64,000 nucleotides of DNA from IMG/VR virus record IMGVR_UViG_3300042270_000314; one strand, given 5' to 3'. Both the position numbers and the translations under genes were made by a program. The DNA comes from a virus (taxonomy: Duplodnaviria > Heunggongvirae > Uroviricota > Caudoviricetes). Shown here in pieces: positions 37,130 through 54,440 of this stretch. Position 1 is the first letter of the stretch. Every line of letters begins with the position of its first letter. The notes beneath the pieces were generated by a model. The model was given only the letters and a program-made list of their open reading frames with translations, did no database searches and was not told the DNA's origin.

Positions 37130-37480
37130 AATCCTAAATTATTAAAATTATTAACTATTCGAAATCCTAAGAAAATGATGTATAAAACATTACGTTTTTC
37201 TATAGATTTTGGTGGATTTCTCGTAAGTTATTGATATTATTAGGAAAACTAAGATTTTGGTGGATTTCTAAGTTATTGAAATAATTAAGCTTCCTGGAAA
37301 CATGAAAAATCTCAAAATTTCCAGACTTTCTGATAAAAAAATATTCGAGATGTGGTATAAACTTGAATTTTCTCTATTTACAACTCCGGAGAAATATGAT
37401 AGTTAATATATTAACTTGGTACGGAGGGTATAGTATATAGAATTATATTGATTGGTGAAACAATATTTTGGTAATATGTA
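37130..37480. repeat. ~340-bp repeated intergenic module (second copy at 59395-59730, partial copy at 13740-13810): tandem ~28-bp direct repeats (TTTCAATAACTTAGAAATCCACCAAAA in minus orientation), palindrome GTTAATATATTAAC, TATA-rich core
   Basis: ~75-bp and ~65-bp blocks are identical between the copies; each copy lies 140-210 bp upstream of the first gene of a minus-strand operon (starts 37050, 59310, 13626). Confidence 0.7.
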
Positions 37481-39085: not shown

Positions 39086-39493
39086 GTGGCAATTGATAAA
39101 GATAAAATTGTTGATGATCTACTTAAAGAATATCCAATATATGAACTTGTAGCTTTTGATGAATTGAATATTTCTCAAAAGCTACAAGATAATCCTTATC
39201 AAGTAATTAGATTTCAAGATCAATTACTTAAAGAAAAAATCAGATATGAAGAACTTGAAGAGCTTCAAGAAAAACTTGTTGGTGAACTTTATCACAAGTA
39301 TCGATTTCAATCTGAAGAAGAACTCTCAAACAAGGAAATAGAAAAATACTATTTGCCTAAAGATCCAAAATATCTTAAAATGAAAGAGATTTTGAGAAAA
39401 CAAAAAATTCGTATAGCATTCTTTGAGCTCTGTGTAAAAGGTCTTGATAGACAGTATTGGAGTATGAAAGAATTTGCTAATAAGAGAATCTAA
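39086..39493 (+). CDS. hypothetical protein (135 aa)
   Basis: Track ORF; its stop overlaps the helicase start (TAATG). Confidence 0.4.
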   Translation: MAIDKDKIVDDLLKEYPIYELVAFDELNISQKLQDNPYQVIRFQDQLLKEKIRYEELEELQEKLVGELYHKYRFQSEEELSNKEIEKYYLPKDPKYLKMKEILRKQKIRIAFFELCVKGLDRQYWSMKEFANKRI

Positions 39494-40926
39494 TGATTAC
39501 TTTAAAAATGTATGACAGATTACATATATTTGTAGATTGTGATGATAGAGAAATTTTATTAAAATTAAAAGATCATTTTTCTGAATATGCTCCTGGGTAT
39601 GCTTTTAGTCCAAAGTTTAAAGTTGGACATTGAGATGGAAAAATTTATTTGTTTAGTATCTATGATAAGATTCTTCCTTATGGATTATTGACTGAATTTC
39701 TTTCATTTTACAAAAAGAATTATCCCAAAACCCAACTGATTATAGATGATGAAGTAAAAGAGTTTCTCAAACAGGATTCAAGTTTTGATAATATTGAATT
39801 AGAAAAATGTGAGCCCTGGGATTATCGCCCATACCAAGAAGAATGTATTCGTAAAGCATTAAAATATAAAAAATGTATTATTAGGGCCGCAACTTCTGCA
39901 GGAAAAAGCTATATTATTGCTGGTATAATCAAAAATCTTCTTCATAGCAAGAAAATTTCAAATGCTATGATAATTGTCCCTACTACTTCACTGGTAGAGC
40001 AATTTTATAAAGATATCTTAGACTATGGATTTTATAAAGAAGATCTTGGCCGTGTATATTCAAAATTTAAAGAATGGGATAAGAAGATTGTTATTTCAAC
40101 CTGACAATCTTTATCACATAATGTTTCTCAAGTAGAGAATTTTGATTGTGTAATTATTGATGAAGTACATGGCGCTAGAGCCACAGTTATTAGGGATATT
40201 TTAAAAGCTTCAAATGCAGACTATCGAATTGGCTGTACTGGTACAATGCCTGAAGCAAGACTTGAAACTATGAATGTAAAAAGTTACTTGGGTCCTATAG
40301 TTGTTGAAGTACCAGCATCAGAACTTGCAGACTTAGGATACATCTCAGATAGTAAAATTGTAATGTATCATATTAAATATAATACAAAATTTTCTACTGA
40401 CTATAATGAAGCAAAAGATGAGATATTTAGAAATTCTTTTAGATTAAACAATATATGTAATATTCTTAATAGTATTAATAAAACTGTTTTACTTTTAGTT
40501 GGTAAAGTTGAAACAGAAGGTGAATTCCTTAAACGATTTTTATTGGATCGCGGGTTATGTGAGGAAGACAATATAGTATTCATTTCTGGATCTATGGATA
40601 CATCAGATAGAGAGATCTGAAGACAAAAAGTGATACAAAACCCCGATAAAAAATATATAATTTGCGCAACATACGGGACGTTTAGTACAGGGATCAATAT
40701 ACCTAATTTAGGGCATCTTATTTTTGCTGCCCCCTATAAGTCGAAAATCAGGATACTCCAATCTATAGGCCGGGTTTTACGTAAACATGCATCAAAAAAT
40801 GGTGCTATTATATACGATTTGGTAGATCATAATAACAAATGGTTCCCAAAATACGGCGATATTAGATTAAGATTTTATGATAAAGAAAAGTTTGAAGTAA
40901 TAGAGAAGGAGTTAAAAGAACCTTAA
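39493..40926 (+). CDS. uvsW: SF2 DExH-box DNA helicase (T4 UvsW-like), ~477 aa, 3 in-frame TGA
   Basis: Track ORFs 39649.., 40246.. and 40630..40926 share one frame joined by TGA; motifs RPYQEE, AATSAGKS (Walker A), IIDEVH (DExH), GCTGT (motif III), QSIGRVLR (motif VI). Confidence 0.65.
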
Positions 40927-41210
40927 TGAAATTTAAAGAATTTATGCTTAATGAGATGTTATCTAATGAGATGAATCTCAATGATAAAACTGATGATGAA
41001 ATTTTAAGAATGGCTATTGTTGCTGAACAGGATGCTATTGTTCTTTATCAATTGATGGCTAGAAAAGTAAAAAACAAAAAAGTAAAGGAAGTTCTTCTTG
41101 ATGTTGCTCGAGAAGAAAAAGTTCATATTGGTGAATTTAAAGGCCTTTTAGAAATGTTAGATAAAGAAGAAATTCCTTCAGAGAAAGAAGGAAAAGATGA
41201 AATTGAATAA
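40926..41210 (+). CDS. small hypothetical protein with ferritin-like ExxH motif (94 aa)
   Basis: AIVAEQDAIVLYQ...VAREEKVHIGEF. Confidence 0.3.
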   Translation: MKFKEFMLNEMLSNEMNLNDKTDDEILRMAIVAEQDAIVLYQLMARKVKNKKVKEVLLDVAREEKVHIGEFKGLLEMLDKEEIPSEKEGKDEIE

Positions 41211-41245
41211 ATAATTAAAATATGCTTTAGTAGGAGTCAGTTTAA

Positions 41246-44200
41246 ATGAGAGATTATTTAATAGAAAATCATATATGAAAAGATCAAGAAGGGAAAGATA
41301 AATTCCTTGCAAAAGAAAAGAAAATTACAAATGAATTTTGGATTAATTTTCTTGGCTTTCTTGGTCTGTATGCAAAATATAAAGATGAGAACAAACTCAT
41401 TCAATATTTTAAACAGTCTACAGTAAGACTAGACAAAGTTACTGATACAGATTCTGATCTAATGGTTATTTTGAAAGTCATTGATGACAAAAAAGTTATA
41501 CCTGACATGACTATGACCAAGATTACCAAAATGCTCGCCAAAATTAAAATGGGAACATTGGGTGGGCTGGACGAAAATATGTTTAGAGACGAAATTATCA
41601 AAAGAATAAAAGTTTCATCTTTATACCCATATCCACAAATTTCCGCTCTTCTTAAAGATTTTAAGAAAGGAAATAAAACTTTATCTGATATGCTTCCAGA
41701 ACTCTACAGTTTAGCGATGCAGCATAAGAGAGCACATGAATTTAGGGTATTATATAAAAGGCTTTCAAGTCCTTCAGATAGTACCCAGGATGCTACAGAC
41801 GCACCTGTAACTGTTGATACTGTTGTCCCAAAAGTTTCGTCAGTCAAATCTGCATTAACAGGCGAACCTAAGACTACAAATATTCCTGTTAAAACTCAAG
41901 TTATCCCTACTGATGAGCCAAAAGAAATTCCTGCTCCAACTTGGCAGGATATTACTTTATATACTAATGCAAATCAACTAGATCTTGAATTAAGCACATA
42001 TTATCTTCTAATGTATCTGGTTTCTAATAGTAAATCTTCTAGTGATATTCAAACTATTGTTAGAAGTCTTTATATGAGATATACTCCTTCAAGAACAGTA
42101 ATGAAGCAGTTTTTGTTTGACGAAATTCCAGATGAAATCAAAAAGCAATTCCCTACAATCGAAAAATTATATACCCCAATTAAAGGAGATTTTTCTAGAT
42201 TGTCTCCATATTTTATTGAATATGCATTTAAAGATTCACTTCTTTTTGATTTTAGATATATGGTTAGAACTCTTCAGATGAAAGATAATATAAAAGATCT
42301 ATATACAACTTTTTCTTCTTTTTTTATTGAAGATTTAAAAAAATATTTTTCAGAATGAAGAGGCTCTTTAAAAATTGCTTCTAAAGTTCCTGACAAATAT
42401 ATTGATGAATTAGATTCTATTCTTAAATCTACATTCCCAGATTGTTTGAATGAAAAAAATATAATTAGAGCAATTATTATGCTGCGGGGAAACGATTTTG
42501 AGACTCTTATTCATGGCATTTATGGGGATCAAAAAATTGAAATTGTAGATTATTTAGGGCATTTTGCTGAATATATGACTTTGGATACTATAAATGTTGT
42601 GATTTCTATTGAGAGTAGATCATCAAAAGAAATAGCAAAAAAATGGATTTTATTAGATGATAAAAAAAGTGCAGCATATAGATGAGCTGATTCAATGTTG
42701 ACACTTAAAGACAAAATTGGTGATAAATTATCATATGAAATTCTTAATTCTGAGTTAGTGAAGAGAACAAATCCAACCTCCTTTCATGAATTTTATTTAA
42801 AACATTTGAAAGATAATAATTGAACTTTAAAAGAATATATTGAACACTATAATTTACCATATTCTGAATTTATTGAACGAGTAAAATCAAGTAATGATGA
42901 TCTTAGAAAGTATCTTACTTTGGCATTTTTTTTACATAAAGAATATCAAACAGATCATTCATATTTGATTGAGGATCTTGCACTTGAGACTGGCCCAGGA
43001 TTTAAATGGATAGATGTTTATATTAGTGAACGAGAAGAATTTAGTTTGGTTGGACTTTATTGTTTGAATTATTTTGCATATAAAGGAAACTGGACCAAAT
43101 TTGCGTATTTGGTCAAAACTATAGAAAGAGACTCAAAAAACAATTATCACCCCAAATATATTATTGGCGAAGTTAAAGTTATTAAAAATATTTTTAGGAA
43201 GCTTAATACATCTATGCCTGAGTTTCTACTTTTTTATACACTATTAACAAAATTAATAGATGATAAGTTCGATATGAGTACGGTGCAAAATTGGGGAATT
43301 GAAGCAGATTTTATATTTAAGAACCCCGATTTGTTTATAGATTTAAATAAAATAGTAGCATACAGATTACAGAATTTTATTAAATATTTTGAAAATAGTG
43401 ATTATGATTTATCAAAAAGCATAAAGATAGACGCAGCCATTAAAACTATAATTAAAGAGAATGATGATAGTACATATGGTTTCTTTTCAGTTAAAGACTA
43501 TAGGTTTAATTTAAAAACTTTTAATTCATATAAAGATATATGGTTAGAACATGTAAAATATAAAATTAAGATTTCAGGTCTTCATATTCTAAGAGATTTT
43601 AATTATTTAATTTCGAAAGGATTTTTAGATAAAGCTTTTGTTCAACAATTTTTAGCAGACAATATGGACGATGAAAGATATAAAAAAAATGTATATGATT
43701 ATGTATATAACTTTCCGGTATATGAACAAGATGAATTAAAAAAATCTTTTGCCTTAGAATATTTCGATTCAAAAGACAAAATAAATGATTTCTTATTAAA
43801 TCATGAAGATAATGATTGAAGATTAAAATATCTTAATAGAGCAGGATACTATACATCTAAGGAAGCTACTGAAAATATTGCGGAATATTTAGATCGAAAT
43901 TCTTTCATGATTGGAAAGTTATATGACGATTATGGAGTAGATGCCCTAATAGAATATTTTAAGAATGATAATGTTCAAGGGGTTTGGGATAAAATTAGTT
44001 CTGGTAAAAGACTTTTAAATAAGACCAATAGTCTTGAATATATCATGTTAGATATGTTATCTGATAAAGATAAACTTCAAAAACTTGATGATCTATTAGA
44101 TGCATTTCCTAATAAAATTGCTAATTCATTAGTTAATACATTGAAAGATCAACTTTTGATTTATCCACTATTAAAAGATATTTTCAATGATGATAACCCT

Positions 44201-45451
44201 TTAAAACCCTCAATTAAATTAACCCCTTCTAGAATCAAAACATTATTGAAATATAATAACTTTGAATTTAAGGGAGCAATGCTTAGAAAGAAGCCAAGAG
44301 AAAAATGGGCAGATTACTTTGTGCGTGTTGAACAAGTATTAAAGGGAGATGCTCTCATTCCAGATATCAATTTGGAAAAAATTGAGGAAACTCAAGATCA
44401 GCTTAATGAAAAGTCTGTTGAATATTCTAAATATTATAATGGAAAACATGGAAATTCTGCTGTTGAATTTATTGAATCCTTTAATGTTAATATGAAATAT
44501 CCTGAATTTGATCAATTTAGAACAAGATTTGGAGCTAGTGAACTTATTCCAGCTTTCCATGCTTCAGGATTAACAGCATCAAACTTTATTTTAAGATTTG
44601 GGTTTACTGTTATTCCTGCAAACGATTCTTCTACTGTTGGCAGAATGCTTGATATTCATAATATGCTTTTAGTTAAACCTAAAAGTGATGGAGATGCTAT
44701 TGAAGAGTCTAATGATTATATTGAATATTTAGAAAATGGATATTTTCCTGTATCATCACGAGAATCTGGTAAACGAGTTACATATAGTGATTATCCAACA
44801 GATTTATATCATTGGAGAACAATAGATACTGTTGGTGGAATTTATGTAACTAATGTTATTGAAAAGGCTGCTCAATATCTTGGAGATGATGGTTACTCAA
44901 GAAGAGAAGGAACAGTTGGGACAATCTATGAATGTGAAGTAAATCTAGGGGATTATGGACTTCATCATCATGTTGCAGGTACCGGAAACGACTCAATTCG
45001 TTCTCCCGAATGAGCAATTTGTTGACCTCAAGCTCAAATTAACATTGTAAAAGCTCATAAAGTAATGTTCACAAATAAGAAAAGAATTAAAGAACTTAAA
45101 GCTAAATATCCTAATGCTTTAAAAGAAAACAAGTATTTTAAACGATTTGCAGATTATCTTCAGGAGCAAGAAATGATTAAAAGTAAAAATGTTATTACAT
45201 TTGTGTTTCATCAGTGTACAGTACCAACTGCTAAAGAAATTATGCCTTGGGAAGATTTTGAAAAGAAAGTTATTAAGAAATCTAACAAGATGTATGTTGA
45301 TTCAAATCAGTTTGGTATCGGTATAACCTTCCATACGGATAAAGATCTTAATGGTGTAGTTCGAGTTCCATTTACTGATGAGTTTATGGTAGATGACCCC
45401 GAAGGTTTATATTCTCAGTTTCTGATGTTAGTTGATGAATGTAAAGGTTAA
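41246..45451 (+). CDS. giant 1401-codon protein (7 in-frame TGA; no TAA/TAG for 4.2 kb) with a putative C-terminal ADP-ribosyltransferase-like domain (R...SST...YECEV); candidate virion-injected protein analogous to T4 Alt
   Basis: Track ORFs 41462.., 42446.., 42920.., 43907.. and 45065..45451 plus an upstream extension to ATG 41246 are all in the same frame separated only by TGA; C-terminal motifs FHASGLTASNF, ANDSSTVGR, GTIYECEVNLG. Confidence 0.55.
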
Positions 45452-45456: not shown

Positions 45457-45476
45457 CGGGAGCTTCGGCTCCCTTT
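45457..45476 (+). terminator. terminator hairpin GGGAGCttcgGCTCCC+TTT (identical stem-loop to 26300-26321)
   Basis: Seen directly. Confidence 0.55.
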
Positions 45477-45480
45477 CATT

Positions 45481-45972
45481 ATGACACAATTTATTAAATT
45501 TTTGAGAATGGATCTAAAGAGTGGTGATTCTAAAAGGTCCTATTTTGGAAAGGCGGCTGCTGGTGCCATTGTATATGCTAAAAAGGAAAAAGCCTTCCTA
45601 GTTCTTCAAAGACAAAAAGATACTATAGACGGATGGAAAAAAGTCAAAGAGGCAGGAACTTGAAGCATTGTTGTTTCGGGAAAAGTTGATGATTCTGATA
45701 AATGACCAAAAATAACAGCCAAAAGAGAATTTAAAGAAGAACTGCGATATAATGGCACCTTTAAAATTTCAGAAAAACCATTTGATATTTTTGAGGATGG
45801 AGATTTTACTTTTACAACCTTTATAATAACTGTGGATGAGATATTTGAACCAAAGTTAAATTGGGAACATTCAGCTTATAAATGAATTACATCTTTTAAA
45901 GATATTCCTGCGCCTATTCATTTTGGAACAAAAAGAATTTTAAAGAAGTTGCAAATCAAATACAAAATGTAA
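45481..45972 (+). CDS. NUDIX hydrolase (163 aa, 3 in-frame TGA)
   Basis: Nudix box GKVDDSDKW*PKITAKREFKEELRY fits GX5EX7REUXEEXGU; track ORF 45481..45663 extended through TGA to TAA 45970-45972. Confidence 0.6.
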
Positions 45973-46042: not shown

Positions 46043-47536
46043 TTAGAGAATTACTTCTCCAGTTTCTTCATCAATCATTTCTTCCAATATAAATTTTTTA
46101 CATAACTTTAAATTTTCTTCAAATTTATCTTCTGCTCATACAGTAAGAATTTTATAACCAGCATTAATAGCGATATTATTTTTAAAGGCGTCCCTTTCAA
46201 GTGCTTTAATATAGTCACATTCTTTGTCTCAAACATGCCTTCATTGTTCTTTTTTATCTATAGATCATGTATCTCTTACATGAGATCCATTGCCATTATA
46301 TTCTATTATAAGTTTATCAAATAATGTAAAATCAAACATAAATCTATTTTTTCTATTATTGTATGTTATACACAATTCAGAACTTTCTGGTATACCACAT
46401 TTAATATCTTTAAAATCTGCAATATTCTCTTCAAATAATCAATCTATCAATTCATAAAATAACTTTAAGGATTCTTTGGAAACCGACCTAGTATTTCCTG
46501 ATGATCTTTCACAAAACAAATTATATCTTTTTATGCCCTCATCTTCTCCATATCTATCTATAAAATTGTGTAAATTTTGTTTTGATTTTTCTCTAAATAT
46601 GGTATGTCTTCTAGTTCCTTCTTCCTTTCCATATATTCTAATCATATTATCTAATGTAGGCACACTAGACTTACTTCATCTATTATAAAAAGAAGCTCCT
46701 TCTTCCTTTCCGTATCTATTAATACAATATTTTAAAGAGCCAATGCCTTTTTTGTTACTGCAAACTTCTTTATATCTTCTAGTTCCTTCTTCCTCTCCAT
46801 ATATTCTAATCAAATTGTTTAAACCACAGCCAACTTTATTACAATATTCATTATATTTCTTTAATCCTTCTTCCTCTCCATATCTAATAATAAAGTTTTC
46901 TTTGGAATTTTTAGCAGAATTTACTCATTCATTGTATCTTCTAGTTCCTTCTTCCTCTCCATGCTTTGATATATATTCTTCTAATGTAAGATGTGATTTT
47001 GATCATTCATTGTATCTTCTAGTTCCTTCTTCCTCTCCATGCTTATAAATAAATTTTTCTTTAGATAAAGATTTTGATAAACAATATTCGTCATATTTCT
47101 TTAATCCTTCTTCTTCCCCGTGTCGTTTTATAAAATTTTGTTTATTATTTTTTGTTTTATTAACTCATTCATTGTATCTTCTAGTTCCTTCTTCCTCTCC
47201 ATATTTGTTGGTGAAGAATGCTAAGTCTCTACTACAACCAGCACAGATTTCATTGTATCTTCTAGTTCCTTCTTCCTCTCCATATAAAATTTTTAGTGCA
47301 TGAATACTCCTGGATTTGCCGCATTTTTCGCACAATGGTTTATATTTGCCAGAAGAACTTATAAAATATGTTTCATTTGTTTTACATAACTTACATATAC
47401 CGTCCATATTATCTACTTTAAGATTATTATCATAATAAAATTTAAAAGATATATTATGTTTTTTTGTTAAATGTGTTTTAAGTGCTTTCATAGATTTACA
47501 TTCTATATTGCATATAAGACATATTATTGACATCAA
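46043..47536 (-). CDS. homing-endonuclease-like protein: N-terminal Cys zinc fingers, ~10 tandem YGEEEGTRRYNE-type 25-28-aa repeats, C-terminal Vsr/DUF559-like nuclease motif (IIEYNGNGSHV); ~498 aa with ~9 in-frame TGA
   Basis: Track ORFs 47165..47536 and 46439..46663 share a frame; the intervening sequence is open with TGA as Trp (…YGEEEGTRRYNEW*VNKTKNN…); plus-strand ORFs 46476..46688 and 46743..47048 (SSSPY repeats) are its antisense. Confidence 0.55.
46590..47290. repeat. tandem DNA repeats (~78-85 bp period, core ctcattcattgtatcttctagttccttcttcctctccat) encoding the YGEEEGTRRYNEW protein repeats
   Basis: Near-identical 39-mers at ~46925, 47007, 47163, 47248 and degenerate copies at ~46600 and 46774. 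Confidence 0.65.
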
Positions 47537-47591: not shown

Positions 47592-48650
47592 TTATTCTTC
47601 TAAAGAAACATCTTTTAGTGATTCCTTAAGTTCTTCATCGATCGTACTATATCCAGTAGCTTTAAGTTCATTATTTATTTTTTCTAACATTTCCCTGTTA
47701 AATCATGGAATAGTTTTTTCGATTCCCTGAACTTTTTCACCTGTTATAACATTTGTACATCAACCAGCCCCTGCCTTAGTAATAAATCCAAATTTTTCAG
47801 CTAAATCAAACATACCATGAACTTTGTTAATACCATGTACATAATCAATATCAACCTCACATCTATTAAATGCAGGGTAAAATCTATTTTTTAACGTGTA
47901 TGCTTTAACTACATTTCCAATTACTGTTTTATCTTTATCATATTTCTTTGACTTTTTGAGCATAATAATACAATCGGCTAAATATTTACAAGCTTTACCA
48001 CCACCTATTTCTTCTTCAGTAGCATAAAGACCAGCATTTGGACTTCCGTATGTATGCCCGGTATAAATACCAATGGAACTTTTCTTTTTAATGATTGTGG
48101 TGAATAACTTCATCATTTGCTTAATTTTTCTTGCGAGGCCACCTTGATCTGATTTAACATTTCCATCTGAAGCATCTGATAGAAGTTTATTTGATTCAAG
48201 ACCGCCAATAGAATCTAAAATAATTAAAAATTTTTCATCTTCTTCTTCAAGTAATTGTCCAAAAATAGAGCTTACATTATCTACAATTGGTTCATAAATA
48301 TATAATATCTCATCAGGGTCTAGACCCCATCTTTTTACAAATTCCCCTGATAGTCCCCCTTCAGTATCTATGATAATTACTTTATATCCTTCTTTTTGTG
48401 AATTAGCTGCACAGATACATGCAAATGAAGATTTAAAAGATGCTTCCATGCCAGCTAAAAAATTCATAGATCTAACAGGCAGCCCCTTAAAAAGATCCCC
48501 AGAAATAATTCTATTTAAATCATAACTTGGGGTACTGATTCAAGAATCACAATTCATGATTTCACTATCACTTAAAATTTCACAATGTACACCCTTAACT
48601 TTTTTATTAATTTTAGCTTTCAATTCTTTTAATGTTGTCATATTTTTTTC
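47592..48650 (-). CDS. uvsX: RecA-like recombinase UvsX, ~352 aa, 3 in-frame TGA
   Basis: Track ORF 47760..48467 extended in both directions through TGA; RIISGDLFKGLPVRSMNFLAGMEASFKSSFA matches T4 UvsX IALSGEITGGMQSGLLILAGPSKSFKSNF; RecA L2-like SDQGGLARKIKQMMKLF. Confidence 0.7.
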
Positions 48651-48653
48651 TCC

Positions 48654-49100
48654 TTAACATTTATACATATCTTCAATATTAAGATCTTCTAAATAATCTT
48701 TCATATTTTTATTTTCTAATAAATTTTTAAAAACATTAAAACATTTATCTTGTAAAAATTTCATTCTTGCTTCATGGCCATATAACATTTCTGGCATATC
48801 ATTTTCATCAAATGAAATGTAATATTCATCAACAATTTTTAAATCTTTAATATGTATAAGACCACTTAGATAAGTATATATAGCAATAATTCTTTTAGCA
48901 GAATCTAATTCACAAGAGAATCCAATAATAATATCATTTTCAAAGACAGTTAAAGTTAAATTTCCATCTAAAAGGGATATTACTTCATTTTCCTCATTAT
49001 AATAAGCAAGCTCTTTACCTAGATACTTATCATCTTTAACGATATCCCAAATTCTTTTTGTAATTTCTACATCTGATAACCCCCGCTTCCATTCATCCAT
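48654..49100 (-). CDS. hypothetical protein (148 aa)
   Basis: Track ORF. Confidence 0.4.
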   Translation of the reverse strand: MDEWKRGLSDVEITKRIWDIVKDDKYLGKELAYYNEENEVISLLDGNLTLTVFENDIIIGFSCELDSAKRIIAIYTYLSGLIHIKDLKIVDEYYISFDENDMPEMLYGHEARMKFLQDKCFNVFKNLLENKNMKDYLEDLNIEDMYKC

Positions 49101-51127
49101 TATACTTCCTCCTTAATAGAGCTATATCCATTAGATTTAATAATATTAAACCTACGATCAAATGTAAACGAACTAATTTCTTTTCTATGAGAAACAATGA
49201 ATGTAGCAAGATTGTCTTCACGTTGTTTGATAGTTACAATATTCATAAGATTTTCAATACCTTTAACATCTACAGAAGAATCCAAAATTTCATCAAGAAT
49301 AAGAATGTTTGGGAGATTTTTGCATTTTAATTTTGAAATGTCATAAAGAGCAAATTGAAGAGCCAATTCTAAAGATTTCTTTTCTCCCCCGGAAAGACTA
49401 CTGGCTGTTGCATTAGAAATTCCAGCTCCCTTGATTTCACAATCCAGCCATCCATCAAGCTTGATATAAAACCCTACGGCTGCCTCTGAGAGGTAATGGT
49501 TAGCTCTCTGGTTAATGATAGGTACTAGACTACTAATGGCATATTGCTTAATCTGGTCATCACCACAGAGCTTCTTCAGGAAGGAATAATAATCCTTCAA
49601 AAGACTAAGATTAGTATTCTTCTTTTTGAGTTCAACATTTTCACTCTTCAGAAGACTCAGTTCAGAAATAGCATTTGCTTTGTATTCTTCAAGCTTCTCA
49701 ATCTGAGCTTTTCTTTCTTCAATTCTATTTTTTTCATTTTCAATCTGAGAAAGAAGAAGATCTCTATTGTACAATGAGGCCCTTTCCTTCATTTCTTTCA
49801 ATTTTGAATTGCAATTAAATACAGTATTAGAGAATTTTTCTTTTGTTTCCTTTAGAGTCTTAATAGATTCCATAATCTCTAAATACTTACTATTTTCTTC
49901 AATTACTTTTGTTAATCTTTCAATTTCAGATTCATAATACTTATAATCCATATTAGATTTTTTAATATCATTATGCTTAGAAATAAGGAGGTTTTCCTTT
50001 TCTTCTACTTCAGTAAGCTCCTTGTTTAATCTATCTTTTTCTTTTGCTTTGTGTTCTCTAATAGATTCATTATTCATTTTAGATCCACAAATAGGACAAT
50101 TATCAAGATCTTCATATTGCCCTTTTTGTGAGACCTTTTTCAGATCTGAAAGGATGGATTCTTTCTTTACCTTATAATCGAAACACTCATCATAAAGAAG
50201 CTTTTCAAGTTCCTCATCGTAGTTTACACTAGTAAAATTCTTCTTACATTCTTCTAACTTGTCAGCAGCATTAGGGTCATAACTAATTCCCTTTAGAAGA
50301 GCATTCTTTTCTGAAAAAGCTATTTCAGCTTTATTTTTAACTACTTCAATATCTTTAATCTTTTGTTCATATTTCTCAATATCTTCTTTTGAAGGAAGAT
50401 CATCCGGGATATCGTTGAGTTGTTCCTGAAGTAACTGTAAGTGAGTATCTGAAATGTCAATACTTCGAATATCAGAAGTGTATTTTGAAACATTTATTTC
50501 TAATGAAGAAATTCTCTCTTCATTTTTCGAAACAGAAGTTTTGTTCTCTAATATTGCACTATCAATATTAGAAACTTTTTTATTAATCTTATTCTTTATA
50601 TCTGAGTATGCTTCAAGATTGAAAATGTTCTCTAGAAATTTTCTTTTCTGAGCTTTAGGAATATCAAAGATTGAAACGAAGTTATTTGGATTATAATAGA
50701 ACAAGGAAATAAAGGTTTTGTAATCAATTTTCAAAATTTCTTCTTCGAGATATTTTTGAAAATCTGTGACAGAAGCTAAAGAATCAAGTTCTTTATCGCC
50801 CTTGTAAATTTTTAGAACATTAGGTTTGATTCCTCGTTCAATCCTATATTTAATCCCATCAATAGAGAATGAAATTTCTACCAAGCATTTTTTCTTATTC
50901 TTCCAATTTACTATTTGATCTTTAGTAATATCTTTAATTGTTTTGCCAAACAATGCCCAAACAATACTTTCATTTAAACCAGATTTCCCTGCTCCATTTG
51001 ATCGTGAAGTATCCTTGTTTTGCCCTGAGATCAAAGTCAGCCCGTGGTCAATTTTAAATGTTGAAACATTAGATCCATATGATAGAAAATTCTTTATCTT
51101 GACTTCTTCTAAATGAATTATAGACAT
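49100..51127 (-). CDS. gp46: recombination endonuclease subunit gp46 (Rad50/SbcC-like ATPase)
   Basis: N-terminus KIKNFLSYGSNVSTFKIDHGLTLISGQNKDTSRSNGAGKSGL...YRIERGIKPNVLKI matches T4 gp46 (…TGRNGGGKST…YYIKRGQKPNVFEI); long coiled-coil; C-terminal LSGGEKK signature and LILDEILDS D-loop. Confidence 0.8.
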   Translation of the reverse strand: MSIIHLEEVKIKNFLSYGSNVSTFKIDHGLTLISGQNKDTSRSNGAGKSGLNESIVWALFGKTIKDITKDQIVNWKNKKKCLVEISFSIDGIKYRIERGIKPNVLKIYKGDKELDSLASVTDFQKYLEEEILKIDYKTFISLFYYNPNNFVSIFDIPKAQKRKFLENIFNLEAYSDIKNKINKKVSNIDSAILENKTSVSKNEERISSLEINVSKYTSDIRSIDISDTHLQLLQEQLNDIPDDLPSKEDIEKYEQKIKDIEVVKNKAEIAFSEKNALLKGISYDPNAADKLEECKKNFTSVNYDEELEKLLYDECFDYKVKKESILSDLKKVSQKGQYEDLDNCPICGSKMNNESIREHKAKEKDRLNKELTEVEEKENLLISKHNDIKKSNMDYKYYESEIERLTKVIEENSKYLEIMESIKTLKETKEKFSNTVFNCNSKLKEMKERASLYNRDLLLSQIENEKNRIEERKAQIEKLEEYKANAISELSLLKSENVELKKKNTNLSLLKDYYSFLKKLCGDDQIKQYAISSLVPIINQRANHYLSEAAVGFYIKLDGWLDCEIKGAGISNATASSLSGGEKKSLELALQFALYDISKLKCKNLPNILILDEILDSSVDVKGIENLMNIVTIKQREDNLATFIVSHRKEISSFTFDRRFNIIKSNGYSSIKEEV

Positions 51128-51130
51128 TTA

Positions 51131-51625
51131 TTATTCCTTAAAAAACAAATTTTCATTTACATAACGGTTTCTTAATTCCATTAAAATAAAGCCTAGATGA
51201 TTATGTTTTACTTTTACTTTTTTACATTTTTCACATTTACATACACCCCAAAAATTATCATGCCATAAGTTTCCTTCGATTAATATATAGGGGTGTGTTG
51301 CTATAAGTTTTTCTTTAATACTCTTATTATATTCAAATTTTTCATATATAATGTCTCTCATTATTTGAACTTTTACATTATTCCAATCTTCTCTTAATGT
51401 CAATTTCTTCCCTATTTCTTTGACAAGATGGGGAGTAGGGCAATCTATAATCCATTTTTTCTCTTTTGGATCAAGGGTTTTGGATGCTTGATAAGCATGT
51501 TCAGCAGTTTTCCATACAATATCATTATATAGAACAAAGGAAAAATAAAAATTACTTAGAAAGACATGTTCTCCCCTAAAAGTTTCAATACTGTTTTCAT
51601 CAAATATATTATAGATAGTAGACAT
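51131..51625 (-). CDS. NADAR (YbiA-like) domain protein
   Basis: FRGEHVFLSNFYFSF...AEHAYQASK...GNLWHDNFWG...HLGFILMELR match the NADAR/YbiA family signature. Confidence 0.65.
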   Translation of the reverse strand: MSTIYNIFDENSIETFRGEHVFLSNFYFSFVLYNDIVWKTAEHAYQASKTLDPKEKKWIIDCPTPHLVKEIGKKLTLREDWNNVKVQIMRDIIYEKFEYNKSIKEKLIATHPYILIEGNLWHDNFWGVCKCEKCKKVKVKHNHLGFILMELRNRYVNENLFFKE

Positions 51626-52025
51626 TAAAAGTTACCTCACTGTCTCCAAATACATATTTAAGTTGTTCCTTAACTGCGGGCCAAGATAACCTATCAAGCC
51701 CACAACCAATTTTAGGCATATAGACTTCTGTAATGATGTTATTTCTCATTACCTCTGCCATATTTTGGAGTGCAAAGCACATAGACTCATAAGAGGGTTT
51801 ACCGGAACTTCGTCTTTTTGTTACAATATTTAATACTGGGGAAACATAATAAGTTTTCCCTACTTCAAGAACTTCATTTCGAAGTCTTTTAATTTGTGGA
51901 TAATTTTTCACAAAATCAACCGCAATACCAGCACCCATTTCAGCATCTGCTGCAATACAATGAGCAACCACAGTATCTTTTTTAACAAAATTGAACAGGT
52001 TTCCCTGAGTTTCATTGATTATCAT
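51609..52025 (-). CDS. Macro-domain protein (ADP-ribose binding or hydrolase)
   Basis: VVAHCIAADAEMGAGIAVDF...YMPKIGCGLDRLSW match the macrodomain glycine-rich and GCG(L/I)DxL motifs. Confidence 0.6.
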   Translation of the reverse strand: MIINETQGNLFNFVKKDTVVAHCIAADAEMGAGIAVDFVKNYPQIKRLRNEVLEVGKTYYVSPVLNIVTKRRSSGKPSYESMCFALQNMAEVMRNNIITEVYMPKIGCGLDRLSWPAVKEQLKYVFGDSEVTFNVYYL

Positions 52026-52318
52026 TATTTGAATTCCTCATAGTTATACTTATATCCATTTGGAATATAATATTCTTCATGCTCATAAATGTTAACCATA
52101 CCATTATAATATGCGTTTAAGGATTTTGATGCTGAAATACAAAAAGGCGTGTCACCAAAATCCCATACAGCCTTTACAAATTTAACTTTAAAAGAATATT
52201 CATCATCCGTGGAATTGTCTTCTAATATTTCAATTTCACCAATAAGACCGGATTCTTTATATTGGTATCTTTTTCCAACCTCAACAAAATCCCAGCCACC
52301 ATTATGCCATGTTGCCAT
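52025..52318 (-). CDS. hypothetical protein (97 aa)
   Basis: Track ORF. Confidence 0.4.
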   Translation of the reverse strand: MATWHNGGWDFVEVGKRYQYKESGLIGEIEILEDNSTDDEYSFKVKFVKAVWDFGDTPFCISASKSLNAYYNGMVNIYEHEEYYIPNGYKYNYEEFK

Positions 52319-52331
52319 AATTTACACCCCC

Positions 52332-52769
52332 TTAATTTACATCACCAAATGACATATCTTTATCTTCTGAATCAATTACAATTTTTGCACCATATAAATG
52401 TTCATAGTAACCACACCAAAATGGATAAAGTTGATATTCTCTTTCTCCATCATCATGAAGTAATTTGATAGCATAATCATATCTTGAAGTTGCTTTATAA
52501 AAAGTTGCTTTAACGCAAAACTTAGGAACATTTTTTAACCATTTCTCTTCATTTACATGAGGAGGTTGGGTTGCATATGTAAACCATTCGTAATGTGCTT
52601 TGATTCTTTTTAGATTCTTTTTAGCAATATCAAGATTCTTCCATTCATACTCAAGAATAGAAGTCTCATCAGATGTTGAGAAAGAATCTCCGGCGCGATA
52701 ATAAATTTTAATTTGATAAGACATATGAACTCCAATATTAAAAGTGACTTGATAAAAATAATCTATCAA
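52332..52769 (-). CDS. hypothetical protein (145 aa)
   Basis: Track ORF. Confidence 0.4.
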   Translation of the reverse strand: MIDYFYQVTFNIGVHMSYQIKIYYRAGDSFSTSDETSILEYEWKNLDIAKKNLKRIKAHYEWFTYATQPPHVNEEKWLKNVPKFCVKATFYKATSRYDYAIKLLHDDGEREYQLYPFWCGYYEHLYGAKIVIDSEDKDMSFGDVN

Positions 52770-52797
52770 GCCACTTATCTATTGTAAATAAAATTCT

Positions 52798-53655
52798 TTA
52801 TTCTTTAATCGATAGCATCGGGGACGGCATTGTTCCTGCCATATATGTTGGCATAATTCCGTTCCACTTTTCAATTCGTTTATATTCAACAAGAGTAGCA
52901 GTAATTGAGTTAGATAGGATTTTATTTGCTTCGGCCTGTGCAAGAGCTACAAGCTTAATAGATTCTGCCTCGCCTTGTGCGGCAGCAATTTTCTTACGGG
53001 CCTCGGCTTCAGCTTCGCGGACTTGATTTTCAACCCTTTGTGCAGTCTGCGTGGCCTCAATTTTAGCGTTAAGTGCTGTAATTACGGATCCAGGAAGACG
53101 AAGATCACCAACAAAGGAAATCTGTTCAATAATAATACCAATAGGTTCAACCTTACTCTTTACAATTGATTCAACTTCATCACGAAGAGCAGCCTTACCT
53201 TCACCATAAACAAATTCAACAGGCTTATTTGAAGATGCTACGACAAAAGCATCTCGCACAATATTCCTTAGATAAATGTCAGTAATTTCTTCTACACCCT
53301 TACGATACTTCTGGAAAATATCATTAACCTTATTTGGATCAATGTGATACGCAATACCAATATCAGCATTTACAGAAAGACCTTCCTTTGTCTGAAACGT
53401 AATTGATTCATCATCAGGAGAACCTTCACGAGAATCTGCAGACCAAACATAATTCTGAGTATATGTTGGAAAAATATATAGTTCTTCATTCCAACCAATC
53501 CAATATCGTCCAACACCAAGCTCTTCAGTGTCAACCCCTTTATTTCCACCAAGAAGATAAACCTTCACACCAACATTGCCAGAAGGTACTTTGGTACAAG
53601 CTACACTTCCAAAAGTCAACACCATAAACAGAATTAGATAAACAAGATTTTTCAT
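52798..53655 (-). CDS. SPFH/band-7 (stomatin/prohibitin/HflK/C-like) lipoprotein
   Basis: Signal peptide with lipobox (…FGSVAC); central SPFH fold; C-terminal Ala/Glu-rich coiled coil (AEAEARKKIAAAQGEAESIKLVALAQAEANK). Confidence 0.6.
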   Translation of the reverse strand: MKNLVYLILFMVLTFGSVACTKVPSGNVGVKVYLLGGNKGVDTEELGVGRYWIGWNEELYIFPTYTQNYVWSADSREGSPDDESITFQTKEGLSVNADIGIAYHIDPNKVNDIFQKYRKGVEEITDIYLRNIVRDAFVVASSNKPVEFVYGEGKAALRDEVESIVKSKVEPIGIIIEQISFVGDLRLPGSVITALNAKIEATQTAQRVENQVREAEAEARKKIAAAQGEAESIKLVALAQAEANKILSNSITATLVEYKRIEKWNGIMPTYMAGTMPSPMLSIKE

Positions 53656-53658
53656 AAA

Positions 53659-53892
53659 CTACTCCTTTGATTTAAGTTTTCTAACAATAGGTAAAATCTT
53701 CTTCATAATGATAAAAGCAATCATAATTGGGGATACAGCAATTGTAAACACCCCAAGGAAAAAAAGTTCAGTGTTTGCAGCCGAAATTAGATAGGGCGCA
53801 GCATACCCAAACGAAAAAGCAAACACACACAAAAGAATAGCCCCCCATACATACAACTTAACATAGTCATTCATAATTATCCTCATTACCAA
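53659..53892 (-). CDS. small 2-TM membrane protein (possible NfeD-like partner of the SPFH protein)
   Basis: Two hydrophobic helices; immediately upstream of the SPFH gene. Confidence 0.4.
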   Translation of the reverse strand: MVMRIIMNDYVKLYVWGAILLCVFAFSFGYAAPYLISAANTELFFLGVFTIAVSPIMIAFIIMKKILPIVRKLKSKE

Positions 53893-54281
53893 TCAAAATT
53901 AAAGTTGGAATATCCATGTTCTAATACCTCTTCCTTCAATTTGTCAATATCAATATCAAGATCGTAATCTTCTACACGTTCAACCAAATTTACTAAATTA
54001 ACTGTTTCATGTCTCTCGTAGTTGAAATCGTCATAGTAGTTTATATTATTACTTTCTAATTCTTTGTAATGAATAATCCACTCAGATTTAGGAAACATAT
54101 CTTCATTGTTACGAAACATATCCCATCTCTCATTAATAGGAATGCTTTTGTTTTTAATATATACGGAAATATAATCAAAAATTTCTTTCTGCTTTAATTT
54201 TAACTTTTTAATTTCCTCGTAGAGTTCATCAATGTTATCAATGGTCATTCTAGATTTCCCTCCATCGCCATTTATTAGCAA
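53886..54281 (-). CDS. hypothetical protein (131 aa)
   Basis: Track ORF. Confidence 0.4.
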   Translation of the reverse strand: MLINGDGGKSRMTIDNIDELYEEIKKLKLKQKEIFDYISVYIKNKSIPINERWDMFRNNEDMFPKSEWIIHYKELESNNINYYDDFNYERHETVNLVNLVERVEDYDLDIDIDKLKEEVLEHGYSNFNFDW

Positions 54282-54440
54282 TTTCTAAAAAGTTATCATC
54301 ATATTCATACTGGAAAGACCATTCAGGGCCATACATTTCAAACATTCTTTTTCGGGATTCATCAAAAGACCCTTCAATCACAACATAACAATTTGCGTGT
54401 TTTTGACCACAACCAAAAGTAAATGCATACTTACTCATTT

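What the first reader, a model, noticed from the sequence alone, without database searches (positions are those of the whole stretch)
41246..45451. Giant 1401-codon ORF hidden by 7 TGA codons, with an ART-like (R-S-E type) C-terminal domain: candidate injected effector analogous to T4 Alt
- Five track ORFs plus an upstream extension lie in one frame for 4.2 kb with no TAA or TAG. This is a single huge protein under TGA=Trp.
- The last ~200 aa carry a plausible ADP-ribosyltransferase triad arrangement: an Arg-containing segment FHASGLTASNFILRFGF, an S-S-T motif (ANDSSTVGR) and an E-x-E motif (GTIYECEVNLG).
- T4 packages the 682-aa ART Alt into heads and injects it.
- A 1400-aa ART-tailed protein next to head and tail genes could be an ejection or anti-defence effector.
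Basis: inference. Interest (0 to 1): 0.65.

Follow-up and report, generated by a model that had tools for sequence, protein, structure and literature searches.

The report
Giant phage PARP-type ADP-ribosyltransferase, TGA-recoded
The 4.2-kb stretch is one real 1401-residue gene of a T4-like phage that reads TGA as tryptophan, and its C-terminal end is a PARP-type (not Alt-type) ADP-ribosyltransferase from an already catalogued but uncharacterised family of giant phage proteins.

Summary
Window 41246-45451 (+) is a single frame of 1401 codons with 7 in-frame TGA, no internal TAA or TAG, a ribosome-binding site and a hairpin just after the stop.

TGA encodes Trp here:
- A 94.5%-identical relative has the same gap-free ORF, with TGA/TGG swaps at four Trp codons.
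- TGA columns align with W/Y/F in standard-code homologs.

The "ART-like" reading is right, but the R-S-E/Alt assignment is wrong:
- The domain (about residues 1041-1275) is PARP-like, H-Y-E type.
- Evidence: homologs pass Pfam PF00644; hhalign to PARP1 gives 94%; Foldseek top 50 are all PARP1/2.
- H1105, Y1200 and E1255 are near-invariant in 111 family representatives.
- Profile comparison with T4 Alt gives nothing.

The protein belongs to a fixed-architecture family of 1000-1700-aa proteins. Members are found in T4-like phages such as Aeh1, phiAS5, pf16, RSP15 and Stenotrophomonas Menderavirus. The family is phrog_18612, and some members are already annotated as ART or PARP.

Injection like Alt is untested. 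The gene looks late (TGA-rich, a 7/8 late-promoter motif), but the family sits mostly among replication and recombination genes, and I found no virion proteomics.

It is a new member of a known kind, of moderate interest.

The parts
41206..41213 (+). AATAAATA, a 7/8 match to the T4-type late-promoter motif TATAAATA. Its ATAAATA core starts 39 nt before the ATG.
   Evidence: Exact TATAAATA lies 24-58 nt upstream of 11 genes, mostly structural or TGA-using, and upstream of none in the TGA-free block 48654-59310. This is a lead, not a proven promoter.
41232..41236 (+). Ribosome-binding site AGGAG, 9 nt before the ATG.
   Evidence: Read directly from the sequence.
41246..45451 (+). Single gene for a 1401-aa protein, read with TGA = Trp. 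In-frame TGA codons start at 41276, 42356, 42683, 42821, 43817, 45011 and 45023. The stop is TAA at 45449.
   Evidence: phrog_18612 matches at E 1e-81.
41246..41761 (+). Conserved N-terminal domain of about 172 aa, the family hallmark. It carries a conserved [LI]-x-E-N motif at residues 5-8 and a TGA-Trp at codon 11.
   Evidence: alignments. A profile search found 155 representatives, matched mostly through this domain. It has no Pfam, PDB or NCBIfam match.
41762..41941 (+). Low-complexity P/T/V/S-rich linker, about residues 173-232, variable in length and sequence.
   Evidence: Alignment.
41942..44365 (+). Poorly conserved middle region, about residues 233-1040. Residues 859-1035 are predicted helical.
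   Evidence: Identity is 25-34% in segments 372-857 against relatives. The AF2 model of 859-1255 is helical up to about residue 1035. No domain match was found.
44366..45070 (+). PARP-like (H-Y-E) ADP-ribosyltransferase domain, about residues 1041-1275. H1105 is at nt 44558-44560, Y1200 at 44843-44845, Y1211, and E1255 at 45008-45010.
44651..44833 (+). Lineage-specific insertion of about 60 aa between GRML and GGIY, at the position of the PARP donor-site loop.
   Evidence: Alignment. Only 4 of 96 representatives in which the motif pair could be found have a 60-70-aa spacer; 92 have 2 residues.
45011..45025 (+). Two TGA-Trp codons (1256 and 1260) in the strand directly after the candidate catalytic Glu. 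Standard decoding would cut the ART fold here.
   Evidence: Standard-code gene calls P0005 and P0008 end at ...IRSPE. W1256 is W in 94/111 and Y in 14/111. Both codons are TGG in L008.
45071..45448 (+). Conserved C-terminal alpha/beta tail domain, about residues 1276-1401, function unknown, present throughout the family.
   Evidence: pLDDT about 80-92.
45458..45483 (+). GC-rich hairpin GGGAGC-TTCG-GCTCCC followed by a T-rich tail. It is terminator-like or a stabilising hairpin.
45481..45972 (+). NUDIX hydrolase gene immediately downstream, a candidate partner that processes ADP-ribose or NAD-derived products. A NUDIX gene also follows the giant gene in L004.
   Evidence: Pfam PF00293 at 3.9e-11. 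phrog_1198. L004 context.
40926..41210 (+). 94-aa rubrerythrin / encapsulin-ferritin-like gene immediately upstream. It is conserved upstream of the giant gene in L003, L004, L005 and L008.
39493..40926 (+). UvsW-type helicase gene, running in the same direction upstream.
   Evidence: phrog_16 at 4e-88. Pfam UvsW_N in relatives.

Best explanation
Window 41246-45451 encodes one 1401-residue protein of a T4-like myovirus that decodes TGA as tryptophan.

**Family.** It is a member of a conserved, fixed-architecture family of giant proteins (about 1000-1700 aa) in T4-like phages. The layout is a hallmark N-terminal domain of about 170 aa, a disordered linker, a fast-evolving middle region of about 800 aa (helical where modelled), a PARP-type H-Y-E ADP-ribosyltransferase domain, and a conserved C-terminal tail.

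**Mechanism.**
- Shown: the fold, and the NAD-site residues His and Tyr.
- Inferred: the enzyme binds NAD+ through H1105, Y1200 and Y1211. With E1255 it transfers ADP-ribose, mono or possibly poly, onto macromolecular targets in the infected cell.
- Inferred: the large N-terminal part provides target recognition or localisation.

**Timing.** Translation is impossible beyond codon 10 without TGA-to-Trp decoding. The gene sits in the TGA-rich part of the genome that also carries the late-promoter motifs. It is therefore most likely a late-expressed gene (inferred).

**Open.** Whether the late-made protein is loaded into heads and injected, as Alt is, or acts inside the producing cell is not resolved.
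For: **One gene with TGA = Trp:**

**PARP-type fold and residues**
- Family members P0009, P0010, P0011 and P0014 pass the Pfam PF00644 gathering score. Marzo gp73 and Aeh1 ORF131c fall just below it.
- P0011 against PDB PARP1 gives E 5e-5. PAFHGTG aligns with LLWHGSR, and GDGIYFSN..AAQY with GKGIYFAD..SANY.
- hhalign of the family against the PARP1 catalytic domain gives probability 94%, E 1e-7.
- The AF2 model of the C-terminal 428 aa of P0001 (76% identical to the window) has pLDDT 81.8. Its Foldseek PDB top 50 are all PARP1/2 catalytic domains, E about 1e-8.
- BFVD top hits are family members (1183-1373 aa; one UniProt name is "PARP catalytic domain-containing protein"), followed by giant-virus PARPs.
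- H1105 is conserved in 111/111, Y1200 in 109/111, Y1211 in 108/111 and E1255 in 109/111.

**Fixed architecture:** all 111 proteins of at least 900 aa found with the N-terminal profile also carry the C-terminal ART domain.

**T4-like genome:** homologs of gp21 protease, gp23/24, gp20, gp18, gp13, UvsW, UvsX and gp46 are present.

**Late-gene indications**
- TGA/TGG is 75/72 in 14600-48650, against 2/54 and 3/37 in the TGA-free blocks (Fisher p about 1e-11).
- TATAAATA motifs occur upstream of no gene in the TGA-free block 48654-59310.
- A 7/8 motif lies 39 nt before the ATG.

**NAD/ADP-ribose context:** a NUDIX gene lies downstream here and in L004. An ADP-ribosylglycohydrolase-like gene and NAD salvage genes lie near the Aeh1 and Marzo homologs.

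**Literature:** phage PART (PARP) ARTs are listed among the commonest viral ARTs (PMC9503650).
Against: - The window protein itself gives no Pfam PARP hit at E <= 1. The assignment rests on homologs, a profile comparison and a model of a 76%-identical relative.
- The equivalence of E1255 with PARP1 E988 is inferred from invariance and strand position. A forced global hhalign did not align it reliably.
- I could not measure spatial co-location of H, Y and E because no model coordinates were available.
- The window and its closest relatives have H-A (FHASG) where all 111 representatives have the H-G of the NAD site. They also carry a 60-aa insertion in the donor loop. Activity could be altered.
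- No suppressor tRNA(UCA) lies in the window or the related loci. The means of TGA decoding (a code-4 host or a phage factor elsewhere in the genome) is unknown.
- Late timing rests on motif and codon-usage patterns only.
Confidence: 0.85

Rival explanations
1. Alt-like injected effector. The protein is made late and loaded into the prohead. It may be trimmed by the gp21-type protease at the N-terminal L-I-E|N site. It is then ejected with the DNA and ADP-ribosylates host targets, such as RNA polymerase or defence proteins, at the start of the next infection.
For: - The gene is in the TGA-rich, late-promoter-bearing part of the genome and has a 7/8 late motif at the right distance.
- A gp21-type head maturation protease is encoded at 22877-23524.
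- Seven of nine family members align an [LI]-x-E-[NS] motif at the position of residues 5-8, which fits the T4 prohead-protease site type (L/I-x-E, from my own knowledge of T4). pf16 and RSP15 have an [LI]-x-E tripeptide near the N-terminus but outside that column.
- T4 Alt sets the precedent, and PMC9503650 argues that many myovirus ARTs are head-packaged.
- An encapsulin-cargo-like ferritin gene lies directly upstream.
Against: - No homology to Alt.
- No MuF or other head-associated domain.
- The N-terminal domain is never fused to other effectors, so it is not a generic delivery module.
- Neighbours in 59 viral loci are mainly replication and recombination genes: UvsW 11, gp32 11, RNaseH 12, against MCP 1, portal 3, sheath 2.
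- No virion proteomics for any family member turned up in my searches.
- [LI]-x-E is a short motif and could simply be part of the domain fold.
Confidence: 0.3
2. Intracellular PARP-like enzyme that is not packaged. It acts in the producing cell on phage or host DNA ends, RNA or proteins. It may be tied to recombination-dependent replication and repair (the UvsW, UvsX, gp46, gp32 neighbourhood), or it may counter NAD+/ADP-ribose-based defence. NUDIX, ARG and NAD-salvage genes would handle products, reversal and NAD+ supply.
For: - Synteny with replication and recombination genes here and in 59 loci.
- An ADP-ribosylglycohydrolase-like gene is adjacent in Aeh1, and NadV/NatV lie nearby in Marzo and Aeh1.
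- A NUDIX gene is adjacent here.
- PMC9503650 reads the Aeromonas-phage ART-ARG pair as a DraT/DraG-like macromolecule-modifying pair.
- Cellular PARPs act at DNA breaks (established knowledge).
Against: - No DNA-binding or break-sensing domain was detected in the N-terminal 1040 aa.
- Gene order in T4-like genomes is largely inherited, so neighbourhood is weak functional evidence.
- T4 alt is also not encoded among head genes.
Confidence: 0.4
3. Catalytically degenerate ART fold. In the window lineage the PARP-like domain has lost or changed activity and serves as an NAD/ADP-ribose binder or a structural module.
For: FHASG replaces the invariant H-G, and a 60-aa insertion sits in the donor loop, in the window clade only.
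Against: - H, Y, Y and E are all retained.
- The domain is 66-72% identical to P0001 and P0002, which have H-G.
- Against L008, segment 859-1255 is 92% identical and has 66 synonymous codon differences. Over the whole gene there are 98 synonymous and 77 non-synonymous differences. Both indicate purifying selection.
Confidence: 0.07
4. TGA terminates translation here, and the region holds several separate small genes.
For: Standard-code gene callers split the region. No suppressor tRNA is seen in the window.
Against: - No TAA or TAG in 1401 codons, against 78 and 123 in the other two frames.
- TGA/TGG swaps in a 94.5%-identical relative with no frame shifts.
- TGA aligns with W in standard-code full-length homologs of 1200-1370 aa.
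- Termination at codon 1256 would cut the ART fold just after its candidate catalytic Glu.
Confidence: 0.01

Closest known systems
Giant PARP-domain proteins of T4-like phages (phrog_18612). Examples: Aeromonas phage Aeh1 ORF131c (1211 aa), phiAS5, Pseudomonas phage pf16 gp92 (1312 aa), Ralstonia phage RSP15 ORF127 (1373 aa), and Stenotrophomonas Menderavirus Marzo gp73, Moby and Ps15 ORF165 (1202 aa).
   Same: - Full-length homology: an N-terminal hallmark domain, a variable middle, the PARP-like ART and a C-terminal tail.
- The same invariant H, Y, Y and E residues.
- The same size class.
- A T4-like genome context.
   Different: - About 20% overall identity.
- The window lineage is TGA-recoded.
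- It has a 60-aa insertion in the donor loop.
- It has H-A instead of H-G.
- It has a small ferritin-like gene upstream.
Cellular PARPs / ARTD family (Pfam PF00644), for example the PARP1 catalytic domain.
   Same: - The ART fold and H-Y-E type NAD+ site.
- The closest structural matches are PARP1/2.
   Different: - 13-16% identity.
- No PARP regulatory helical domain, zinc-finger, WGR or BRCT modules detected.
- A much shorter segment between the EVxLG strand and the candidate catalytic Glu, so no PARP1-type acceptor loop.
- Poly- versus mono-ADP-ribosylation is unknown.
Phage T4 Alt (682 aa, R-S-E ART, head-packaged and injected).
   Same: - An NAD+-using ART encoded by a T4-type phage.
- Probably late-expressed.
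- Large, with a long non-catalytic N-terminal part.
- An [LI]-x-E motif near the N-terminus.
   Different: - A different ART clade (H-Y-E against R-S-E).
- No detectable sequence or profile similarity.
- Packaging not shown.
- A different genomic position.
Stop-codon-recoded (TGA to Trp, table 4) phages.
   Same: - In-frame TGA at Trp positions.
- Uneven use of the recoded codon between gene blocks, as in the proposed link between recoding and late or lytic genes (cited in PMC11210395).
   Different: - Here the genome is T4-like.
- No Sup-tRNA(UCA) is seen in the 64 kb available.
- A code-4 host cannot be excluded.

Membership tests
PARP / ARTD-type (H-Y-E) ADP-ribosyltransferases | ART (NAD+-binding beta-alpha-loop-beta-alpha) fold. 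| tested here: met
   The AF2 model of the 76%-identical P0001 C-terminus has pLDDT 81.8. Its Foldseek PDB top 50 are all PARP1/2 catalytic domains, E about 1e-8, probability 1.00.
PARP / ARTD-type (H-Y-E) ADP-ribosyltransferases | His of strand 1, and the Tyr-Tyr pair that stacks on nicotinamide. | tested here: met
   H1105 (FHASG) aligns with PARP1 WHGS. GGIY..AAQY aligns with GIYF..SANY. These are conserved in 111, 109 and 108 of 111 representatives.
PARP / ARTD-type (H-Y-E) ADP-ribosyltransferases | Catalytic Glu on strand 5. | tested here: inconclusive
   E1255 (IRSPEW) is conserved in 109/111 and lies in a predicted strand with pLDDT about 89. hhalign did not align it confidently with PARP1 E988, and no coordinates were available.
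PARP / ARTD-type (H-Y-E) ADP-ribosyltransferases | Gly following the His (the H-G NAD-site motif). | tested here: not met
   The window has H-A (FHASG). All 111 representatives have H-G.
PARP / ARTD-type (H-Y-E) ADP-ribosyltransferases | Pfam PF00644 match above the gathering score. | tested here: inconclusive
   The window protein has no hit at E <= 1. Homologs P0009, P0010, P0011 and P0014 score 29.7-39.6 bits against a cut-off of 26.7.
PARP / ARTD-type (H-Y-E) ADP-ribosyltransferases | NAD+-dependent ADP-ribosyl transfer activity. | not testable with these tools
   Needs biochemistry.
Giant T4-like-phage PARP-domain proteins (phrog_18612) | Full-length similarity: N-terminal hallmark domain plus C-terminal ART and tail. 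| tested here: met
   phrog_18612 matches at E 1e-81. tblastn to Menderavirus proteins spans residues 5-1367. The nine-member alignment has 45 invariant columns. All 111 long hits share both ends.
T4 Alt / VIP2 (R-S-E) ARTs | R, S-x-S and E-x-E catalytic motifs. | tested here: not met
   The proposed S-S-T is S in 61/111, then mostly V, then V/A/T. The proposed E-x-E is E in 77/111 and 39/111. YECEV aligns with the non-catalytic PARP1 LLGEVALG.
T4 Alt / VIP2 (R-S-E) ARTs | Sequence or profile similarity to Alt. | tested here: not met
   hhalign of the family against T4 Alt gives probability 0.1%. There is no tblastn hit of Alt in the window or in the 59 loci.
T4 Alt / VIP2 (R-S-E) ARTs | Packaged in the head and injected with the DNA. 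| not testable with these tools
   Only indirect leads exist: late-gene features, the N-terminal L-I-E motif and a gp21-type protease. No proteomics was found.
Polyvalent / MuF-fused head-packaged effectors | MuF or portal fusion, or several different effector domains in one polypeptide. | tested here: not met
   No MuF or any second enzymatic domain was detected. The N-terminal domain is always paired with the same ART.
TGA-to-Trp recoded phage (table 4) | In-frame TGA at conserved Trp positions, interchangeable with TGG. | tested here: met
TGA-to-Trp recoded phage (table 4) | Phage-encoded suppressor tRNA(UCA) or other recoding machinery. | tested here: not met
   The window has 10 tRNAs, none with anticodon UCA, and the related loci have none. 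Only part of the genome is available.

The most novel reading that the evidence does not exclude
The most novel reading not excluded has four parts.
- In this recoded T4-like lineage the giant PARP-type enzyme is gated by the genetic-code switch. There is a conserved TGA at codon 11 and two TGA beside the candidate catalytic Glu. The enzyme would then be made only late in infection.
- It is loaded into the capsid, possibly with the adjacent encapsulin-cargo-like ferritin, and trimmed by the gp21-type protease at L-I-E|N.
- It is injected, which would make it a PARP-class functional replacement of Alt.
- This would be the first head-delivered H-Y-E or poly-ADP-ribosylating effector in T4-like phages.
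Probability: 0.2. Interest if true: 0.65.

Novelty: new member of a known kind. Interest (0 to 1): 0.38.

Why it matters
- **Annotation.** Standard-code gene calling shatters this gene. One break falls directly after its candidate catalytic residue. Public databases hold such truncated fragments, for example P0005, P0006 and P0008. Recognising code 4 restores a 160-kDa enzyme.
- **Biology.** The family is widespread in T4-like phages. The N-terminal profile finds at least 111 clusters at 50% identity, and 59 IMG/VR loci encode relatives. It has strictly conserved NAD-site residues, yet no member has a known target, timing or location.
- **Testability.** Cultured members exist in Aeromonas, Pseudomonas, Ralstonia and Stenotrophomonas phages. 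The injected-versus-intracellular question and the mono-versus-poly question can be tested directly.
- **This finding.** It adds a recoded, insertion-bearing variant. It does not define a new kind of system.

Tried and rejected
1. Pfam, PDB-sequence and NCBIfam scans of the full protein or its ends gave nothing significant.
2. The profile of alignment A1 against PDB gave no PARP hit. The profile was dominated by insertion-bearing members.
3. The first AF2 model used the window's own residues 859-1255 and was cut at the TGA after the Glu. It scored pLDDT 69, and Foldseek returned only weak helical-repeat hits. It was discarded as uninformative because the fold was truncated.
4. A forced global hhalign to extend the PARP1 alignment to the catalytic Glu was unreliable.
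5. The afdb50 fold library was unavailable.
6. The search for related loci with the broad alignment A3 failed, so I used a trimmed core alignment instead.
7. Virion-proteomics evidence for any family member was not found in the pf16, Ps15 or DLP6 papers, nor in a general search.
8. Code 25 (TGA = Gly) was rejected, because TGA columns align with W/Y/F and swap with TGG.
9. The R-S-E triad was rejected.
10. The idea that the N-terminal domain is a modular delivery domain fused to varied effectors was rejected.
11. A MotA-box-like TATGCTTTA lies 16 nt before the ATG. I judged it too close to serve this gene and did not pursue it.

Full report
**1. The observation**

Translating window 41246-45451 (+) in one frame gives 1401 codons ending in TAA.
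- The seven internal stops are all TGA, at codons 11, 371, 480, 526, 858, 1256 and 1260.
- The other two frames of the same stretch contain 78 and 123 TAA/TAG codons, so the open frame cannot be chance.
- Under the standard code the frame splits into six ORFs of at least 40 aa.
- The frame opens right after a TAA. Its first codon is ATG, with AGGAG 9 nt upstream.
- A GC-rich hairpin, GGGAGC-TTCG-GCTCCC followed by a T-rich tail, follows the TAA at 45458-45473.

**2. TGA is read as tryptophan**

- A search of 5.8 billion proteins returned four full-length homologs of 1400-1419 aa at 35-53% identity.
- Their contigs (L003, L004, L005) do not translate to those proteins under table 11 and carry 5-6 in-frame TGA each. 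The database proteins have W at those sites.
- In a family alignment the TGA columns hold W, Y or F, including in the standard-code phage proteins Marzo gp73 and Aeh1 ORF131c.
- The closest relative is L008, a 131-kb JGI contig whose genes were called with the standard code and so are fragmented. It has the same 1401-codon frame at 94.5% amino-acid identity and without a single gap.
- Between the window and L008, TGA and TGG are exchanged at codons 233, 1190, 1256 and 1260.
- All eight inter-TGA segments are conserved in frame in four relatives.
- TGA = Gly (code 25) and "TGA terminates" are therefore both rejected.

**3. What kind of genome this is**

PHROG scans identify homologs of the following:
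- a T4 gp21-type head maturation protease (22877-23524);
- two gp23/gp24-type capsid proteins, a gp20 portal, a gp18 sheath and a gp13 adaptor;
- a large terminase, UvsW (39493-40926), UvsX (47592-48641, minus strand) and gp46 (49100-51127, minus strand).

The window is therefore part of a T4-like myovirus with about 30% G+C. There is no nucleotide-level match among 50,697 phage records.

TGA use is strikingly uneven.
- In 14600-48650 there are 75 TGA against 72 TGG. This block holds the structural genes, uvsW, the giant gene and uvsX.
- In 48650-59400 the counts are 2 against 54, and in 4570-14300 they are 3 against 37 (Fisher p about 1e-11 and 2e-7).

The T4 late-promoter motif TATAAATA is enriched, with 31 copies against 15 expected.
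- It lies 24-58 nt upstream of 11 genes, mostly structural or TGA-using. It lies upstream of none in the TGA-free block 48654-59310.
- This fits the published idea that recoded stops mark late genes (cited in PMC11210395).
- No tRNA with anticodon UCA occurs in the window or in related loci. A natively code-4 host cannot be excluded.

**4. The C-terminal domain is PARP-type, not Alt-type**

- The full protein has no Pfam or PDB sequence hit. It does match phrog_18612 (unknown function, 1214 positions) at E 1e-81.
- It also matches 1200-1370-aa proteins of T4-like phages of Stenotrophomonas, Aeromonas, Pseudomonas and Ralstonia. [quoted passage not shown]
- A search with the last 426 aa found homologs that pass the Pfam PARP (PF00644) gathering score.
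- One of them, P0011, hits PARP1 chains in the PDB at E 5e-5. PAFHGTG aligns with LLWHGSR, and GDGIYFSN..AAQY with GKGIYFAD..SANY.
- A local hhalign of the family against the PARP1 catalytic domain gives 94% probability, E 1e-7.

Structure prediction:
- The window's own sequence could not be submitted across its TGA codons.
- A first model of residues 859-1255 stopped at the TGA after E1255. It was mediocre (pLDDT 69) and found no ART fold.
- A model of the C-terminal 428 aa of P0001, which is 76% identical to the window, reached pLDDT 81.8.
- Its 50 best Foldseek matches in the PDB are all PARP1/PARP2 catalytic domains, E about 1e-8, probability 1.00.
- In the viral structure library it matches the RSP15, Menderavirus, pf16 and phiAS5 giants, then giant-virus PARPs. 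UniProt names the pf16 protein "PARP catalytic domain-containing protein".

Residue conservation across 111 family representatives:

| Position | Conservation |
|---|---|
| H1105 | 111/111 |
| Y1200 | 109/111 |
| Y1211 | 108/111 |
| E1255 | 109/111 |

- A profile comparison of the family with T4 Alt (taken from the T4 record) gives probability 0.1%.
- So "ART-like" is confirmed, while "R-S-E type" and family kinship with Alt are not.
- The assignment of E1255 as the catalytic Glu is an inference from invariance and strand position. A forced global alignment did not settle it, and I had no model coordinates to check co-location.

**5. Anatomy of the protein**

- Residues 1-172 form a conserved domain, with a conserved [LI]-x-E-N motif at residues 5-8 and a TGA-Trp at codon 11.
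- Residues of about 173-232 are a P/T/V/S-rich linker.
- Residues of about 233-1040 evolve fast, at 25-34% identity in their central part. They are predicted helical where modelled, and no domain matched.
- Residues of about 1041-1275 are the ART domain.
- Residues of about 1276-1401 are a conserved alpha/beta tail of unknown function.

Two features are specific to the window's clade:
- an insertion of about 60 aa between GRML and GGIY, at the PARP donor-loop position, seen in only 4 of 96 representatives where the motif pair could be found;
- Ala instead of the otherwise invariant Gly after the catalytic-site His (FHASG).

Codons 1256 and 1260 are both TGA and lie directly after E1255. Standard-code gene calls in public data (P0005, P0008) end exactly at ...IRSPE.

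**6. The family**

- A profile of residues 1-975 searched against 1.84 billion representatives found 155 proteins with E <= 1e-3, matched mostly through the N-terminal domain.
- All 111 that are at least 900 aa long also carry the C-terminal ART domain, with hmmsearch E values from 1e-20 to 1e-145.
- The architecture is fixed. The N-terminal domain is not a module that delivers assorted effectors, and no MuF or second enzymatic domain is present.
- In IMG/VR, 59 loci on contigs of up to 249 kb encode relatives.
- Within 10 kb of these genes, tblastn finds UvsW (11 loci), gp32 (11), RNaseH (12), primase (9), DexA (9), NadV (8), gp46 (7), gp59 (5) and ADP-ribosylglycohydrolase (4).
- Head and tail genes are rare there: MCP 1, portal 3, sheath 2, protease 2.
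- In the window the gene runs in the same direction as uvsW and a 94-aa ferritin-like gene, and is followed by a NUDIX hydrolase gene.
- The literature already lists PART (PARP) ARTs among the most frequent viral ARTs and discusses an ART-ARG pair in Aeromonas phages (PMC9503650).

**7. How it most likely works**

- Shown: one protein, TGA = Trp, a PARP-type fold, and conserved NAD-site His and Tyr.
- Inferred: it uses NAD+ to ADP-ribosylate macromolecules, with E1255 as the catalytic Glu and the N-terminal 1040 aa giving specificity or localisation.
- Inferred: nothing beyond codon 10 can be made without TGA decoding. The gene shares the codon usage of the late block and has AATAAATA (7/8 of the late motif) 39 nt before its ATG. 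It is therefore probably late.
- A late-made ART could be packaged and injected like Alt. A gp21-type protease is present, and the N-terminal L-I-E|N resembles its cleavage-site type. Alternatively it could act in the producing cell, in keeping with its replication/recombination and NAD/ADP-ribose neighbourhood.
- I found no virion proteomics for any member.
- My estimates are about 0.3 for injection and 0.4 for a purely intracellular role.

**8. Verdict**

- The finding is real and the gene model is correct.
- The enzymatic class was half right: it is an ART, but of the PARP H-Y-E type, not R-S-E.
- The Alt analogy remains an untested hypothesis.
- It is a new, recoded, insertion-bearing member of a known and widespread but experimentally uncharacterised family.
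- Interest is moderate.

Noticed in passing
window 40926-41210 (+): A 94-aa rubrerythrin-fold protein lies directly upstream of the giant gene. Its best NCBIfam matches are encapsulin ferritin-like cargo families: EncB_fam at 1.6e-14 and ferrit_encaps at 4.7e-9, both below their cut-offs. It has an EExxH motif. It is conserved upstream of the giant gene in L003, L004, L005 and L008. An encapsulin-cargo-like protein in an HK97-fold phage is curious.
   Followed up: partly
window 4570-14300 and 48650-59400 versus 14600-48650: TGA-Trp use is blocky. Counts are 3/37 and 2/54 TGA/TGG in two blocks against 75/72 in the structural/uvsW/uvsX block. The TGA-free block 48654-59310 also has no TATAAATA motif upstream of its genes. 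This looks like early versus late partition of the recoded codon in a T4-like phage. No Sup-tRNA(UCA) is among the 10 tRNAs of the window.
   Followed up: partly
window 15099-18568 (-): The large terminase gene appears split or expanded into 461-aa and 701-aa overlapping ORFs with 15 TGA in total. The larger ORF contains a long basic repeat-rich insert that looks like a homing endonuclease or intein-type insertion.
   Followed up: no
window 46043-47533 (-), 6587-7891 (-), 27179-29131 (-), 1347-2342 (-): These look like paralogous proteins, with an N-terminal zinc-finger-like segment and, in 46043-47533 and 6587-7891, about ten 'YGEEEGTRRYNEW'-type repeats plus a C-terminal nuclease-like end. 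Only 46043-47533 was scanned (phrog_22677, unknown function). They are probably mobile homing-endonuclease-like genes. One sits between the NUDIX gene and uvsX.
   Followed up: no
window 37190-37270: GATTTTGGTGGATTTCT occurs twice as a direct repeat in the divergent intergenic region between the gp13-like gene (minus strand) and the plus-strand gene run that contains uvsW and the giant gene. It may be a regulatory site.
   Followed up: no
window 44558-44563 (codons 1105-1106): The window and its nearest relatives (P0005, P0006) have His-Ala (FHASG), where all 111 family representatives, and PARPs generally, have His-Gly at the NAD site.
   Followed up: partly
L004 1299-2105: In the more distant recoded relative, a separate 268-aa R-S-E-type ART (Pfam ADPrib_exo_Tox) lies two genes upstream of the giant PARP-type gene, and a NUDIX gene lies just downstream. 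That phage therefore carries both ART classes side by side. No such gene is in this window.
   Followed up: partly
window 4574-5905 (-) and tRNA clusters 877-2954, 56589-56744: A tRNA nucleotidyltransferase (CCA-adding enzyme) gene lies next to a cluster of 8 tRNA genes. A second pair of tRNAs (Met, Arg-UCU) sits in the TGA-free block.
   Followed up: no
window 41222-41230: TATGCTTTA matches the T4 MotA-box consensus. It lies only 16 nt before the giant gene's ATG, probably too close to serve it.
   Followed up: no
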